From the human T2T-CHM13v2.0 reference genome, Homo sapiens: a stretch of DNA of 64,000 bases. Positions 41,681-47,864 of the stretch are shown piece after piece. A model generated the notes under the pieces. It searched no databases. It was given only the letters and a program-made list of their open reading frames with translations, and had not been told where the DNA came from. The translations under genes were made by a program, and so were the position numbers. The stretch lies in the NCBI RefSeq assembly GCF_009914755.1, contig NC_060926.1, one strand, 5' to 3'. Position 1 is the first letter of the stretch. The number at the start of each line of letters is the position of its first letter.

Positions 41681-43424
41681 GCCATCTCCTGCAGCACTTA
41701 AACAGAACCCCTAAGAACAACTAGCAGCACTTGCCTGATCAATGTAGCCAACAGAAGGAGGACAACCTATTTTTCATAGATTTTTTGGGGGATTTTCTAT
41801 TTAAATAATCATGCTGCCTAAAAAAGGAGACAGTTTCATTTCTTATTTTCCAATGAGCATGACCTTTATTCCCTTTTCCTGCCTTATTGCAGTGGCTAGA
41901 ACTTCTAGTACTGTGTTTAATAAGACTGATGAAAGTAGAAATCTTTGCCTTGTTTTGGATTGTATAAGGCAATGTATTCTGTCTTTATCATGAAATACAA
42001 TGTCTGATGTAGTTTTTTAATAGATGTTCTTTATGAGGTTGAGGAAGTCTCCCTCTATTCCTAGTGTATTTGAGAGGATTTTCTATTTTCATCATTAATG
42101 GGTGTTGAATTTTGTTAAATAATTTTTTGTTGCCAACTGCTATGATTATATGGTTTCTCTTCTTTAGCCTGTTGCTATGATAAATTTTATTAATTTCTTT
42201 TCAAATATTGAATCAGCTTTGTCTACCTGGCATAAATTTCACTTGGTCATGGTGCTTTAGTCTTTTTATACATTGTTGGATTTTGATTAATTACATTTGA
42301 TTGGTGGTTTTTACATCCAAAGTTCATGAGAGATATTGATCTGTAGCTTTCTTTTTGCATACTTTCTTTAGCTGGTTTGGGTATCAGAGTAATGACGGCT
42401 TCATAAAGAGAATTGGGAACTTCCTAATTTTCTCTTCTCTCCTATTTTCTGGAAGATACACATAGAATTGGCATTAATTTTTATTTGAATGTTTGGTAAA
42501 ATTCTTGGATGAAACCCTCTGGACCTGGAGATTTCTTTTTGGGGAGTATTTTTATTATAAATCCAATTCTTAGAAATATCTACACAGCTATTCAGATTAT
42601 CTGTTTCACCTTGGCTAAGTTTTAGTACTTTGTGGTTTTTGAGGAATTAGCCCATTTCTTCAAACTTGTTGAATATATGAGCATAAAGTTGATTACAGTT
42701 TTTAAATTATCTTTTTATAGCTAAAGACATCTATTGTGGTGTCCCCTATTTCATTTCTGATGTTGGTGATTCATGTCTTCTCTCTTTTTATATTTGCCAT
42801 TCTTGCTAAAAGTTATTAATCTTATTAATTCTTTTAAAGAGACAACTTTCTGTTTCATTTTTTCTTTTTCCAGTTTTCAAGTTCATTAGTTTCTGCTCTT
42901 TTTTATTTCCTCCTTTCTGCTTTCTTTGAGTTTATTTTGCTCAACTTTTCTAATTTCTTGAAGTAGAAACTTAGATTAGTAATTTGAGATCATTCCTCTT
43001 TTCTAATGTAAGCATTTACTCCTATCAATTTTATTCTCAGCACTGCTTTAGCTAATCTTACAAATTTTAACATGTCATATTTTCATGTTCATTCTTTTCT
43101 TGTCTTTTTAAAATTTCCTTTGAGATTACCACTTTGACGCATGGATTATTTAAATGTTTTTTGTTTAGTTTCCAAGGGTTTGGAGATTTGCCTATTGACT
43201 TTCTGCCTTGATTTCTACTTTGATTTTATTATGGCCAGGTAACATAGTCTGTATAATTTCAATTCTCTTGAACTTTTTAATGTTTGTTTTATGATCTAGG
43301 ATATGCTCTATCTTGGTAAATGTCTCATGGGACCTTTAAAAAAATGTGTATTCTGCTGTTGTTGGACAGATTGTGCTATGAATGCCAATTAGATCCTGTC
43401 AGTTGATGGTGTGGTTGAGTTTTT

Positions 43425-44218
43425 CTATATTCTTGCTGATTTTCTTGCTAGTAGTCCTAGAAGTCCTGAGTGCAGGGAGACAGCAGGGATTGATGCCTCA
43501 ACCACAATTGTGGATTTCTTCTTTCAGCTGTCTTAGTTTTTGCTTCAGACATGTGAAAGTCTGTTGTTTGGTTCATAGGTATGTAGAGAAAATGCTCACT
43601 AACTGTGTTTTTCTTTTACTGTCACACCACAATCATCAACACAGAAGAAAGGCCCAGTGACTCATGGGAAACTACTGTATTAAAAACTTGCAGCTAATGT
43701 TTTAAATTAACCAGAAAAAACACAAAAGTCAGAACACTGCACCAACAGATAGAGCCCTGTGCCTTTATAAAAGAAAAAAAATATTGCCTTCTATACACTC
43801 TCCCTCACCATAAAGATAATCCTCTGGTTTTCTCCTAAGTAACCAGAGAGTGGATACCCCACACCGCAAAAAAATAAAATTCTATTTGTTGAATATCTTT
43901 TGTCTTAAAGATAACAGCTCAGGAAAAATAGACTGCACTTAACATGATTTATGTCATTCCTTTTTTGTGCCCTTATACGATATGAAGAAAGGCTTCTGTG
44001 TTGATGTTGTCATGGTGTGACAGCAGAAGAAAAACACAGCTAGGGAGAGTTTTCTCTACATACCTATGAACCACACAACAGACTTTCACATATCTGAAGC
44101 AAAAACTAAGACAGCTGAAAGAAGAAATCCACAATTGTGGTTGGGGCATCAATCCCCCACTGTCTCCCCACACTCAAGACTACTAGGACTACTAGGGAGA
44201 AAATCAGCTAGAATATAG
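43425..44218. repeat. Inverted repeat: arms 43425-43647 and 43993-44218
   Basis: Arms are reverse complements at ~90% identity by manual alignment; ORFs 43382+ and 43973- share GLMPQPQLWISSFSCLSFCFR. Confidence 0.97.
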
Positions 44219-44890
44219 CAGCGGACACCAGCTGGGTGTCCTCCAATGCAGTTCTGACACTATCTACCCAGAGATAGAGTCAGATCCCACAGGTTGAAGG
44301 TTCAGCCCCCAAGACTGCCCCCATACACACACCAGTTGTAAGTCTGGGCCTCCACAACTTCTGACTAGCCAGCTTCAAGGTGGGGTTCCCATGACCCCCT
44401 CTTTGGGTTTGATTAATTTGCTGGAGCAGCTCTCAGAACTCAGAGAAATGCTTACCTATGTTTACGGGTTTATAATTAAAAAATATTGCAAAGGAGACAG
44501 ATGAAGAGATGCCTAGGGTGAGGTATGGAGAAAGGGTCACGGAGCTTCCATGCCCTCCCTGGGTGCACCACGCTCCAGGAACCTCCACATGTTCAGCTAT
44601 CTGGAAGCTTAACAACCCTGTCCTCTTGGCTTTTTATGGAAGCTTCATGATGTCAGCATTCCTTCCCCCAGGATATAGGGTGGGACTGTCTCATGGGAGG
44701 GTCTTAAGATCCACAATGAGAAAGGCAGAAAGGTGGGAGAACATTAGAGTGAAAGGAAGGCAGGAGAAGGTCAGAGGCCTGTCCCTGAGGCCTAACACCC
44801 CCAACAATATAACAAAAGACTCTAACACGGGATGTGGGAGTTATGAGCCAGGACCCATGGATGAAAGCCGACATATATCATAACATCACA
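43582..44890 (-). mobile_element. MER21-family LTR carrying the complex insertion
   Basis: tgtttttcttttactgtcacaccacaatcatcaacacagaag then cagcggacaccagctgggtgtcctcc...gtcagatcccacaggttga...ataacatcaca. Confidence 0.75.
43652..43983 (+). repeat. Direct copy of 46521-46849
   Basis: gcccagtgactca...ccttata(c/t)gatat aligns end to end at roughly 88-90% identity. Confidence 0.97.
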
Positions 44891-46520
44891 ACAGGAGAGC
44901 TACATCTTCTTGGTGAATTAATTCTTTTTGTTATTATGTAATTTCCCTCTTTGCCTATAGTAACTTTCTTTGCTCTGAAGTCTGCTTTTTCTGATGTTAA
45001 CATAGCCACTTGTGCTTCCTTCTGACTAATGTTTACACGTTATATCTTTTTCCATCAATTTGCTGTCAGTCTACCTATATCATTGAATTTGAAGTGAGTT
45101 TCTTGTAAACAACACATAGCTGGGTCATGTTTTGTAATACACTCTGCCAATCTCTGCATTTTAATGGATGCATTTAGAACATTTACATTTAAGATAATTA
45201 TTGATATATTAGGACTAAGTCTGATATTTTATTATTATTTGTTCTCTGATTGATCCTTTTGTTTATTACACTTTTGTTTCTTTTTTCTTGCCTTCCTGTG
45301 GTTTACTTGGACATTTTTTGATGTTTCATTTTGATTTAATTGTGATTTTTTTTTTCGGCATATCATGTTATGTTGTTTCCTTAGTGCTTATTATGTTTGG
45401 AAACTCTGTAGATGGACAGCCTTCCATGATGGGGAGGAAGCTGCAGGGCCTGGGTCTCCTTATGCCACTGGATGGAGTCTGGGGAGACACAGGGCTTCAC
45501 AGTGGCTGCTTCTGTGGGTGAATTAGGCCATGTGCTGTGTCTAAGTTGTGGACTGGGGGCCAGGACTGTCCAGGGCTTTGCTGCTGCTACTATTGCTGCT
45601 GATGCCACTGCTGGCAGATCAATCTCTCTGCAAGGACCCTGGGTTGTACAAAACAGGGGCTAGAGCTTCCTACTGGGTCTCTGTTGGGGCTCCCCTTTCC
45701 TGAACTTTGGCCAAAGACAACAGGATATTCTTGGGGGTTTTGTTGTTGTTTTGTTGTCATTTTTTCTGTGCCTGTTGGTGATTCCAGCACAGCCCAGCGT
45801 ATATGGGAGACAAAAAGAAAACTTAGAAAACTTACCATGTTGCTGTTACTCAAGTCCTGAGGTTTCTTGCAAGTACACCTTTTCTTCTAGCTTTCAGAGC
45901 CCTTTATCATTGTCTGCTGAATAGTTTCCAAGGTACTTAGTTGTATTTAGAGGAGCAGAGCAGGGAAAAATGAGTTTAACCATCTTGTTCCAGAACTGGA
46001 AGTCGGCAGAGCCTGTTTTAAAAATAATGTTTAAAACAAATTTTATTTCGTGGGTGATTTTCCAGAAAGCAGAAAAAGTACTATCGATGGCACTTCCTAT
46101 AATAAAAACTACACCCTATGCTTTCTTGGAAGGAATCAATTGCATTATTCAACAGTCGTCTTCCTCTGAACCTGCTCTGCATTTAGTCAACAGGATATTG
46201 AATTCCTTTTAAAAATCTAAACAGATTATCACTTCTTTCCTGAACCAAAAGTTGATTAGTAATGTAAATACTTGTCTGTAACACAGAAAACTGTGTTTTC
46301 TTTGAGCTCTTCCTATTCCGTATCCCTTGTCTTGAATGAGGAGTTTTTCCTTTGGCACCAAAAGGTTACAACTACATTTATCTACAAATAAACTACCATA
46401 GAAGAACTGGAACTTTCCTAATTATCAATGTTTAGCTGCACTAATAAAGCTTTCTTATATCTGTGTTCTCCTTGTTTCTTGTCTTGGACCCTTGCCTGAC
46501 ACAGATAGGATGGGCTTTCA

Positions 46521-46849
46521 GCCCAGTGACTCACGGGAAACTACTACATTAAAAACTTGGAGCTAATGTTTTAAATTAACCAGAAAAAAACACAAAAGGC
46601 AGAACACTGCACCAATGGATAGAGCCCTGGCCCTTTATAACAGAAAAAAAAATACTGCCTTCTATACACTTTCCTTCACCACGAAGATAATCCTCTGGTT
46701 TTCTCTTAAGTAACCAGAGAGTGGACCCTCCCACAAAAAACAAGTTCAATTTGTTAAATATCTTTTGTCTTAAAGATATAGCTCAGGAAAAAGTAGACTG
46801 CACTTAACATGATTTATGTCATTCTTTTTTTGTGTGCCTTATATGATAT
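46521..46849 (+). repeat. Probable donor of the 43652-43983 copy
   Basis: Embedded in non-repeat AT-rich flanks with no visible junction. Confidence 0.9.
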
Positions 46850-47864
46850 CTCATGACTTGGAAAACTCCTATAAATATGTAAAATATTAGAATGTATAGC
46901 AAAAAATTGTCAGTTTACGTTATTTTTGGCTTATCTCAGTACAAAGATTAATGTGGTAAAATTGAATATTTATATCCTTAAGATAAAATTGAATGTTCCA
47001 ATGTGAAGTAACATATTTTCAACTACATTTTTTTTTTCTGAAATCCCTTTATCACCACAAACTCTATCTTTAAAAAAAAAAAAAAGTTCACAACATATAC
47101 CATTTTCTGGCTCTACATGAAAAGTTTATTGTTTGTGTGCAGGGTTAAAGAGAAGCCAATAAGTTAACATGTTATATTTGACATGGGAGCTGTTCACTCC
47201 AAATTTTAAGAAAAGCCAGAAAAATCACGTACAGGCAACCAACCAGAGCGTTAAAATGGCCTTTTGTTAATTGTTAAAAATCTGTATAGAAGTACATTTT
47301 TTTTTAATTTGTAAAAGTGGAAGCAATTTGAGTCACTTTAATTTACAGCATGAATGGAAGATTCTCGGAGTCATCTATAACCTCAGCAGAAAATGTGATT
47401 ATAAAAGTTTATAAAAACCCCAGTTCCCCAGAGAGCTATGAAATGAGCAGAGTGCAGAACATATTCTATCAGTCTCTTGAAATATTATTTGCCCTCTTAA
47501 CTGATAAGGCAATGGAGGAAGAAAGTAAGAATGTAATACAAATATGAAAAAGTGACTACCTTTGCCTGCCTTCAACAAACCTAACTTTAAATAAAATAAG
47601 AATAATGAACAAATCAGCTAAAAAAGAAAACAGCTTTTCCCCTAGTTTCTTTTGAAGTGAATCTCCCTTTACTTTTTTTAAATTTCTTGGAATCCTACAA
47701 ATTAAGGCTTCCTTGGAAATGAATGAATTTTTTAGAATTTCAAGACTCAAAAGATAAACAAAGAAGTCTGTTTTTCTTCTCTCACCCACCCCAACCCTGT
47801 GAATAACCCCAGGTTACAGCCTGGGTTTCCCTCTGTTCTTTATGTCTATCAGGGGTTTTAGAGC

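What the first reader, a model, noticed from the sequence alone, without database searches (positions are those of the whole stretch)
43425..44218. Fossil fold-back palindrome with ~225-bp arms nucleated at an LTR micro-hairpin
Seen: 43425-43647 and 43993-44218 are reverse complements at ~90% identity. The arm spans the L1/MER21 junction, so it postdates the LTR insertion and cannot be two independent elements. Removing the spacer leaves caacacagaag-aaagg-cttctgtgttg, a palindrome with a 5-nt loop. After arm 2 the LTR resumes at cagcggacacc. Recalled, not verified: the MER21 consensus has a natural cacagaag..ttctgtg quasi-palindrome here and ~60 bp of LTR is missing. Inference: a nascent or broken strand snapped back on that hairpin, copied itself for ~225 nt and then switched back to the LTR.
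Basis: partly seen in the sequence, partly recalled or inferred. Interest (0 to 1): 0.8.

Follow-up and report, generated by a model that had tools for sequence, protein, structure and literature searches.

The report
Ancient snap-back duplication at LTR hairpin
An old retroviral LTR inside an L1 carries a small natural hairpin on which a DNA strand once folded back and copied about 220 bases of itself, leaving a decayed palindrome whose centre was also patched with a copy of nearby DNA; it is a clean fossil of a known kind of copying error, not a new kind of element.

Summary
The inverted repeat is real. Arms 43425-43647 and 43993-44218 match at 89.9%, E 2e-81.

Arm 1 is the original. It is collinear with an L1 that a solo ERVL-type LTR (43580-44890) interrupts.

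The pivot is a natural 8-bp hairpin of this LTR family, CACAGAAG-loop-CTTCTGTG. It is a perfect 8-bp stem in 11 of 31 other copies and occurs at 126 exact places genome-wide.

Arm 2 starts directly after the native 3' stem. It replaces 33-38 bp of LTR, not about 60. That lost piece holds a second family hairpin. The LTR resumes at 44219 with a 2-nt microhomology.

Bases 43652-43983 are a direct copy of unique DNA 2.87 kb downstream (46521-46849). A 9-bp direct repeat, GAAGAAAGG, flanks it at the hairpin loop. It has diverged as much as the arms (8.0% against 8.1% substitutions).

The whole structure is also present in a 99.2%-identical segmental duplication at about 87.6 Mb on the same contig (C2).

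Verdict: a template-switch (snap-back) inverted duplication, type "3-2-1-4", plus a templated patch at the palindrome tip. It is a new member of a known kind and is probably neutral.

The parts
42320..43579 (.). L1 fragment, left part. It is collinear with other L1 copies and contains the outer 155 bp of arm 1.
   Evidence: 42320-43618 aligns to L042 1032-2241, 43130-43589 to L041 1699-2156, and 42820-43577 to L043. The name L1 is recalled and came from no tool.
43575..43579 (+). Left target-site duplication of the LTR insertion (ATAGG).
   Evidence: Read. It matches ACAGG at 44891-44895 in 4 of 5 bases. The L1 is contiguous across the LTR in L041 (2156 to 2159).
43425..43647 (+). Arm 1, the original copy: 155 bp of L1 plus the first 68 bp of the LTR, up to and including the 5' stem of hairpin HP1.
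   Evidence: Searches give the inverted repeat. One search shows it is collinear with the upstream L1.
43580..43652 (+). LTR 5' end, through the HP1 5' stem (CACAGAAG, 43640-43647) and the loop (AAAGG, 43648-43652).
   Evidence: Homology to the other copies starts at 43582 in 11 of 31. Read by eye, the start is 43580.
43644..43652 (+). Left copy of the 9-bp direct repeat GAAGAAAGG that flanks insert B.
   Evidence: Read. The junction motif was located at 43640.
43653..43983 (+). Insert B, a direct copy of the unique segment 46522-46849. Base 43652 (G) could belong to either side.
   Evidence: 89.0% over 336 columns, E 1e-116; 26 substitutions in 325 aligned pairs; no other copies in the genome.
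43984..43992 (+). Right copy of the 9-bp direct repeat GAAGAAAGG.
   Evidence: Read. The junction motif was located at 43979.
43993..44000 (+). Native 3' stem of LTR hairpin HP1 (CTTCTGTG). This is the primer end for the snap-back.
   Evidence: The same 8-mer follows the loop in other copies of the family.
44001..44218 (-). Newly copied part of arm 2: the reverse complement of 43425-43639. The last two bases, AG at 44217-44218, are also LTR sequence and form the microhomology at the return junction.
   Evidence: In one search, LTR homology resumes at 44217 in 26 of 31 copies.
44219..44890 (+). Remainder of the solo LTR. The 33-38 bp of family sequence between HP1 and this point, which include hairpin HP2, are absent.
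44891..44895 (+). Right target-site duplication of the LTR insertion (ACAGG).
   Evidence: Read. LTR homology ends at 44890 in 8 of 31 copies, which is the modal end.
44896..45354 (.). L1 fragment, continuing after the LTR.
   Evidence: 44899-45354 aligns to L041 2159-2638, and 44907-45316 aligns to L043.
46521..46849 (+). B0, the unique donor segment copied into the palindrome centre.
46511..46525 (+). Small hairpin TGGGCT-TTC-AGCCCA at the left edge of donor B0. The copied stretch begins one base into its 3' stem.
   Evidence: DNA fold of 46495-46540, -6.4 kcal/mol, z -1.6, so weak on its own.

Best explanation
This is the neutral, decayed product of a template-switch copying error in the primate germ line.

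Background. A solo ERVL-type LTR sits inside an L1. Near its 5' end the LTR family carries two adjacent natural hairpins. HP1 is CACAGAAG, a loop, then CTTCTGTG. HP2 is a G-run, a T-run and a C-run, a few bases further on.

Step 1, inferred. A polymerase stalled, or the DNA broke, at HP2 just after HP1 had been copied.

Step 2, shown by anatomy. The free 3' end, ending in CTTCTGTG, paired with CACAGAAG. This used an 8-bp stem and a 5-nt loop, either within the strand or on the complementary strand. It was then extended for 218 nt back across the LTR start and 155 bp into the flanking L1.

Step 3, shown. Synthesis returned to the LTR just past HP2 at a 2-nt microhomology (AG). The 33-38 bp holding HP2 were lost. 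[quoted passage not shown]

Step 4, shown as structure, with an inferred mechanism. The tip of the new palindrome holds a 331-bp direct copy of unique DNA from 2.87 kb downstream, flanked by a 9-bp duplication of stem end plus loop. I favour, slightly, that the near-perfect palindrome broke at its tip soon afterwards, and that a staggered break was patched with a templated copy, which stabilised the palindrome. My odds are about 0.45 for this, 0.45 for extra switches within the same event, and 0.1 for something else.

Date and function. The arms and the patch are equally diverged at about 8% substitutions. By recalled primate divergence values, that places the event roughly 30-45 million years ago. 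No function is indicated. The only likely consequence is a long double-stranded stem in the intron RNA of MIR4435-2HG.
For: Arms: 89.9% over 227 columns, E 2e-81.

Arm 1 is the parent. It is collinear with the L1 upstream, and the L1 continues after the LTR at adjacent positions of other L1 copies.

The arms resemble each other far more than they resemble other copies. They are about 90% alike, against 64-71% to three other L1 copies and 72-93% to other LTR copies.

HP1 is a family feature. It has a perfect 8-bp stem in 11 of 31 other copies, and a stem of 7 in 3 more. The exact pattern occurs at 126 places against 0 for the reversed control. It folds as DNA together with HP2 in L011 at -13.8 kcal/mol, z -4.0.

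All 31 copies continue with family sequence after the 3' stem. The window switches to the complement of arm 1 at exactly that base.

HP2 lies in the stretch that is missing here. In the other copies it has a perfect stem of 7 bp or more in 11 of 31.

LTR homology resumes at 44217 in 26 of 31 copies, which gives the AG microhomology.

B is a copy of B0: 89.0%, E 1e-116. B0 is unique in the genome, since 4 of 4 candidates are B0, B and their two segmental-duplication copies. The 9-bp direct repeat flanks B.

Divergences are equal: 18 of 222 (8.1%) for the arms and 26 of 325 (8.0%) for B against B0.

The structure is older than a 99.2%-identical segmental duplication that carries all three junctions.

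The mechanism class is documented. I read passages on the four-point template-switch model (PMC5453318), on snap-back SD-MMEJ (PMC2943611), and on snap-back at 5-9-bp inverted repeats with 3-12-bp spacers (review PMC7999016).
Against: No orthologous sequence from another primate was available. The pre-event state is inferred from paralogous LTR and L1 copies, not observed.

The stall or break at HP2 is inferred only from the position of the deletion.

The return microhomology is only 2 nt, which is expected often by chance.

No other copy of the family shows the same accident, so there is no sign of a hotspot. None of the 30 copies with 1.5-kb flanks has one. None of about 33 other loci has one. 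The compact-palindrome pattern gives 0 exact matches, and the 17 places found with up to 2 mismatches are ordinary copies with point changes. I judged those from the printed matches and inspected only L044. Pattern scans cannot see cases that carry a long spacer.

The 9-bp duplication fits neither simple snap-back nor simple end joining without an extra assumption, either a staggered break or a 9-nt backward re-priming.

The window's loop, AAAGG, is not one of the loop variants seen in other copies (a, g, c, t, aaga and others).

The equal divergences cannot separate one event from two events less than about 20 million years apart.
Confidence: 0.85

Rival explanations
1. One compound replication accident of the MMBIR/FoSTeS type, with four template switches. 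The nascent strand leaves the LTR at the HP1 loop and copies 331 nt from 2.87 kb ahead. It re-primes 9 nt behind its point of departure and copies the loop and 3' stem. It then switches to the complementary strand for 218 nt, and returns past HP2. Under this reading B and arm 2 arose in the same cell cycle.
For: The divergences of the arms and of B against B0 are identical within error, 8.1% against 8.0%. The donor lies only 2.87 kb away, in direct orientation, and is unique. A 9-nt backward re-priming explains the direct repeat without any nuclease. The left edge of the donor also sits at a small hairpin. A perfect 226-bp palindrome with a 5-nt loop would never have needed to survive on its own.
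Against: Microhomology at the two B junctions is 1 nt and 0 nt (read). Once B is in the strand, the 8-bp HP1 stems are 340 nt apart, and a local 4-bp mini-hairpin competes with them (43975-44015). Four switches are less parsimonious per event than two. The donor-edge hairpin is weak (z -1.6).
Confidence: 0.4
2. Repair of a double-strand break outside replication: snap-back synthesis-dependent end joining or fold-back priming. A break in or at HP2 was resected. The 3' tail snapped back on HP1, was extended 218 nt, was unwound, and was joined to the other end at the AG microhomology.
For: The anatomy matches the published snap-back scheme, with a primer repeat on one side of the break, an inverted templated insert, and a short microhomology at the final joint (PMC2943611, passages). 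The deletion is confined to the hairpin-forming HP2. Donor B0 lies on the far side of the supposed break, within plausible resection range, and in the orientation expected for synthesis templated in trans.
Against: The snap-back examples in the passages I read are short insertions. That such inserts are typically tens of nucleotides rather than 218 or 331 is recalled. The 17 nt between B and arm 2 (the repeat plus the native 3' stem) need a template that resection would have removed. Sequence alone cannot separate this reading from fork template switching, since the product is the same.
Confidence: 0.3
3. B is an ordinary mobile-element insertion with a 9-bp target-site duplication that happened to land in the hairpin loop, and B0 is merely another copy of that element.
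For: A clean 9-bp direct repeat flanks a discrete 331-bp insert.
Against: Genome-wide, the segment has only 4 matches at E up to 10: B0, B and their two segmental-duplication copies. It has no poly(A) or poly(T) end and no terminal inverted repeats (read). The donor lies 2.87 kb away in direct orientation.
Confidence: 0.03
4. The arms are two independent repeat insertions in opposite orientation, or an assembly artefact.
For: Both arms are made of repeat-family sequence.
Against: Each arm carries the same L1/LTR junction, and the arms are about 90% alike against 64-71% to three other L1 copies. The arms have diverged by 8%, and the structure is present at two paralogous loci of a telomere-to-telomere assembly.
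Confidence: 0.01

Closest known systems
Template-switch mutations under the four-point model, event type '3-2-1-4' (Loytynoja and Goldman 2017, PMC5453318, passages read; classic quasi-palindrome switching of Ripley 1982, as cited there).
   Same: The inserted fragment is the reverse complement of adjacent upstream sequence. [quoted passage not shown] The event creates a new inverted repeat. It can be intra-strand or inter-strand.
   Different: The copied fragment is 218 nt. The genome-wide scans in that work target short, local events. The size contrast is my reading, because I did not see the papers' length distributions (figures are not held). This case also starts from a perfect pre-existing 8-bp hairpin of a repeat family, and it carries a second, direct templated insert at the pivot.
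Snap-back SD-MMEJ and fold-back priming at short inverted repeats (Yu and McVey 2010, PMC2943611, passages read; Deng et al., as summarised in review PMC7999016, passages read).
   Same: A short inverted repeat (8 bp, 5-nt loop) primes synthesis on the strand's own upstream sequence. The newly made end is then joined across a small deletion at a short microhomology.
   Different: The insert is very long for SD-MMEJ. Fold-back priming at a break usually yields hairpin-capped ends and large palindromic chromosomes, not an interstitial 218-nt patch.
Large germline inverted duplications formed by fold-back (Hermetz et al. 2014, PMC3907307; abstract and search listing only).
   Same: Inverted duplication nucleated by a short inverted homology, with a spacer between the arms.
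   Different: My knowledge of those cases is recalled, apart from the abstract. They are kilobase-to-megabase duplications with terminal deletions and a native single-copy spacer. Here the arms are about 225 bp, the event is interstitial, and the spacer is imported from 2.87 kb away.
Centre-break revision of palindromes in mammalian cells (Akgun 1997 and Cunningham 2003; recalled and not read. Search one search returned only papers that cite the term).
   Same: The change sits exactly at the palindrome's centre of symmetry and turns a near-spacerless palindrome into one with a 345-bp spacer, which is expected to stabilise it.
   Different: As I recall them, the described outcomes are mostly central deletions. 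Here the outcome is a 331-bp templated insertion with a 9-bp duplication. No experiment links this locus to that pathway.

Membership tests
Template-switch mutation, four-point model type 3-2-1-4 | The fragment between switch points 2 and 3 is the reverse complement of nearby sequence on the same molecule. | tested here: met
   44001-44218 is the reverse complement of 43425-43639. With the native stems, the arms are 89.9% identical, E 2e-81.
Template-switch mutation, four-point model type 3-2-1-4 | The switch points lie in the order 3-2-1-4 along the ancestral sequence. | tested here: met
   I mapped the points against 31 other LTR copies and 3 L1 copies. Departure is after the HP1 3' stem, copying runs from 43639 back to 43425, and return is 33-38 bp downstream of the departure point. 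The ancestral state comes from paralogues, not orthologues.
Template-switch mutation, four-point model type 3-2-1-4 | The ancestral (outgroup) sequence lacks the inverted copy. | tested here: inconclusive
   31 of 31 paralogous LTR copies lack it.
   No repeat library was available. What is shown is that the segment belongs to a dispersed family. The first look found 775 candidates, of which 40 were scored, at 78-85% identity to another copy.
   The host L1 is contiguous across the element. The 5-bp flanks ATAGG and ACAGG match in 4 of 5 bases. The element starts TATG (TGTG in other copies) and ends CA (read). That 5 bp is typical of this ERV class is recalled.
Fold-back inverted duplication at a chromosome break (the large germline class) | A native single-copy spacer between the arms, with loss of the distal sequence. 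| tested here: not met
   The spacer is a copy of 46521-46849. The distal LTR, the L1 and the donor are all retained.
Transposable-element insertion (for segment B) | Membership of a dispersed multi-copy family with defined ends. | tested here: not met
   There are only 4 matches genome-wide at E up to 10, all explained by B, B0 and the segmental duplication.
Structured RNA family (microRNA or other) | A match to a curated covariance model. | tested here: not met
   There were 0 Rfam matches at E up to 1 in 42500-47500, on both strands.

The most novel reading that the evidence does not exclude
The whole structure is the record of one germline replication accident with four successive template switches. 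Every breakpoint sits at a pre-existing small hairpin: the HP1 loop, the hairpin at the donor edge, the HP1 stem, and the HP2 bypass. This would be 'hairpin-to-hairpin' polymerase hopping. It would make the twin-hairpin 5' end of this LTR family, with at least 126 intact copies, a dispersed natural substrate for testing how secondary structure steers template switching in primates.
Probability: 0.35. Interest if true: 0.5.

Novelty: new member of a known kind. Interest (0 to 1): 0.35.

Why it matters
This is an unusually legible fossil of a mutational mechanism. Both the primer (a conserved 8-bp LTR hairpin) and the probable obstacle (a second hairpin that was deleted) can be read from sister copies of the same repeat family. 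The junctions are therefore defined to the base without an outgroup.

It shows that a single template switch can make a stem of about 225 bp de novo. This is the same kind of event that has been proposed to create new RNA hairpins (PMC8794818, passages read).

It also shows what a surviving palindrome looks like: the centre carries an imported spacer.

The practical consequences are modest. The intron of MIR4435-2HG, and of its paralogue, can form a very stable long duplex (-440.8 kcal/mol, z -31). Whether such a duplex would attract RNA editing or double-stranded-RNA sensors is my inference, with no data here. Nothing suggests a selected function.

Tried and rejected
Recurrence at the same hairpin in other copies. 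I found none.
- 0 of 30 copies fetched with 1.5-kb flanks has a second, inverted hit.
- None of about 33 other loci has hits in both orientations at different coordinates.
- The compact extended-palindrome pattern has 0 exact matches.
- With up to 2 mismatches it has 13 places (1-nt loop) and 4 places (4-nt loop). The matched strings printed look like ordinary copies with point changes. I inspected only the single 1-mismatch case, L044, and it reads as an ordinary copy with no extension.
- These scans cannot find cases with a long spacer. Only 40 of the 775 first-look candidates were scored.

B as a repeat family: rejected.

B as a retrocopy: there is no poly(A) or poly(T) at either end, in either orientation. 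The end of the 9-bp repeat does not pair with the antisense intron RNA at the donor edge. Both were checked by eye.

Later flipping of the spacer by recombination between the arms: unlikely. The loop and both 9-bp copies keep the purine-rich orientation of the family loop.

Separating one event from two by divergence: not possible. The values are 8.1 +/- 1.8% and 8.0 +/- 1.5%.

Rfam: no match.

Literature on this locus or this LTR hairpin. One search on MER21 with palindrome, hairpin, inverted duplication and template switch listed no paper containing MER21 among its 10 shown rows, out of 3,024 papers holding at least 2 of the terms. That is only a weak statement about what is in print.

Polarising the arm differences to test for error-prone synthesis: not done. 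It would have needed majority states of proviral copies, for little gain.

Full report
**Observation**

Bases 43425-43647 and 43993-44218 are reverse complements, 89.9% identical over 227 columns, E 2e-81. The repeat finder reports the same pair as I1 plus I2. A global alignment gives 222 aligned pairs with 18 substitutions (11 transitions, 7 transversions) and 3 gap events. This is far beyond chance.

In the whole genome, the only better match to either arm is the same structure in a segmental duplication at C2:87.62 Mb. That copy is 99.2% identical over 3793 bp, with 26 mismatches and 1 gap, and keeps all three junction motifs. All other matches to the arms are repeat-family hits of 69-93% over at most 162 bases.

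**What the arms are made of**

Three other L1 copies align collinearly with the window on both sides of a block at about 43580-44895. In L041, for example, 43130-43589 pairs with 1699-2156 and 44899-45354 pairs with 2159-2638, which are adjacent positions. The same L1 stretch also matches arm 2 in reverse.

Thirty-one copies of a dispersed LTR family (L010-L040) align to 43582-43649 and to 44217-44890. The modal start is 43582 (11 of 31) and the modal end is 44890 (8 of 31). Read by eye, the LTR starts at 43580 and is flanked by ATAGG and ACAGG.

The block is therefore a solo LTR inserted into an L1. Arm 1 consists of the last 155 bp of L1 plus the first 68 bp of the LTR, in their native context. 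Arm 2 is an inverted copy of that junction placed inside the LTR. This rules out two independent elements and shows which arm is the parent.

No repeat library was available to check them.

**The pivot**

In other copies, the LTR reads CACAGAAG, a loop, then CTTCTGTG, and continues with its own sequence.
- The stem is a perfect 8 bp in 11 of 31 copies and 7 bp in 3 more. The remaining copies show decayed versions.
- Loops are mostly 1 nt or 4 nt.
- The exact pattern with its family flanks occurs at 126 places in the genome, against 0 for the reversed control.

In the window, the same 3' stem (43993-44000) is followed at once by the complement of the bases that precede the 5' stem. The native stem is thus extended into the long arm.

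**The deletion**

LTR homology resumes at 44217 in 26 of 31 copies. The family sequence between the 3' stem and that point is 33-38 bp, not about 60.

In the other copies this stretch holds a second hairpin, HP2: a G-run, a T-run and a C-run. Its stem is a perfect 7 bp or more in 11 of 31 copies. HP1 and HP2 fold side by side as DNA in L011 at -13.8 kcal/mol, z -4.0.

Bases 44217-44218 (AG) belong both to the end of arm 2 and to the LTR, giving a 2-nt microhomology at the return junction.

**The spacer**

It is not. Bases 43652-43983 are a direct copy of 46521-46849, 2.87 kb downstream (89.0% over 336 columns, E 1e-116).

That donor is unique in the genome. The search returned 4 of 4 candidates, namely the donor, the copy, and their two segmental-duplication counterparts, and nothing else at E up to 10.

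The insert is flanked by a 9-bp direct repeat, GAAGAAAGG, at 43644-43652 and 43984-43992. This repeat is the last 4 bases of the 5' stem plus the 5-nt loop. The insert has no poly(A) or poly(T) ends. The donor's left edge lies one base inside the 3' stem of a small hairpin, TGGGCT-TTC-AGCCCA (weak, z -1.6).

Substitution divergence is 26 of 325 (8.0%, K2P 8.5%) for the insert against its donor. It is 18 of 222 (8.1%, K2P 8.6%) for the two arms. The two duplications are the same age within error.

**Mechanism**

The anatomy matches a template-switch mutation of type "3-2-1-4" in the four-point model (PMC5453318, passages):
- leave the template at point 1, the end of the HP1 3' stem;
- copy in reverse complement from point 2 (43639) to point 3 (43425);
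- return at point 4, just past HP2.

The first switch uses the 8-bp HP1 pairing and the return uses 2 nt.

Departure is immediately before HP2, return is immediately after it, and only HP2 is lost. From this I infer that HP2 was the obstacle or the break site.

The product is the same in several scenarios. The nascent strand may have folded on itself, or it may have switched to the complementary strand. The fork may have come from the left or from the right. A resected break may have been repaired by snap-back synthesis (PMC2943611, passages; review PMC7999016, passages, which reports snap-back at 5-9-bp repeats with 3-12-bp spacers). Sequence alone cannot separate these.

**The central insert**

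Two readings are about equally likely.

(a) Two steps. A near-perfect 226-bp palindrome with a 5-nt loop should be fragile. The review states that longer, more similar arms and shorter spacers raise instability. A staggered break at its tip, patched with a templated copy of nearby DNA, would give the 9-bp duplication and a stabilising 345-bp spacer.

(b) One compound event with four switches. The strand re-primes 9 nt behind its point of departure after copying the donor.

Equal divergences fit both readings. The near absence of microhomology at the two insert junctions (1 nt and 0 nt) argues mildly against (b).

**Age and consequence**

A K2P distance of about 8.6% between copies lies between recalled human-macaque and human-marmoset neutral divergences. 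That puts the event at roughly 30-45 million years ago. This is an inference that rests on recalled values. The event predates the 99.2% segmental duplication.

The 794-nt stretch, folded as RNA on the strand transcribed for MIR4435-2HG, forms one long stem (-440.8 kcal/mol; shuffles -204 +/- 8; z -31). No Rfam family matches, and nothing indicates function.

**Recurrence**

I found no second case at this hairpin.
- 0 of 30 copies with 1.5-kb flanks has one.
- None of about 33 other loci has one.
- The compact extended palindrome has 0 exact matches.
- The 17 places found with up to 2 mismatches look, from the matched strings, like ordinary copies with point changes. I inspected only L044.

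The limits of these scans are that long-spacer cases are invisible to patterns, and that only 40 of the 775 first-look candidates were scored.

**Verdict**

It is sharpened by the second hairpin, by the true size of the deletion, and by the discovery that the spacer is a second templated copy. The event belongs to a known class of mutation. It is a tidy textbook-grade example, not a new kind of element.

Noticed in passing
L002 (G000:C2:87618897-87622690) and L004: The whole 3.8-kb block (L1, LTR, palindrome, insert B) and the donor B0 are present in a 99.2%-identical copy about 24 Mb away on the same contig, in inverted orientation. This is a recent segmental duplication of the MIR4435 host-gene region.
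   Followed up: partly
window 43589-43597 against 44045-44053: There is a cluster of 3 differences within 6 bases between the arms. Arm 1 reads aaatgctcac where arm 2 and other LTR copies read aaactctccc. So arm 1, the parent, carries a clustered multi-base change made after the duplication.
   Followed up: no
L010-L040, LTR positions just 3' of the first hairpin: The LTR family carries a second conserved hairpin (G-run, T-run, C-run) a few bases after the first. The two form a twin-hairpin motif near the LTR 5' end. Its role in the original virus is unknown.
   Followed up: partly
window 46511-46525: The left edge of the donor segment coincides with a 6-bp-stem, 3-nt-loop hairpin. The complement of its loop region (GAAAG) also occurs in the LTR loop at the acceptor junction. 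This may be coincidence.
   Followed up: partly
window 46843-46850: The right edge of the donor falls inside a short AT-rich palindromic motif (atatgatatc). The copy ends after gatat.
   Followed up: no
window 45836-46012: The annotated MIR4435-2HG exon (minus strand) lies between the palindrome and the donor segment. The duplicated pieces therefore sit in the two introns that flank this exon.
   Followed up: no
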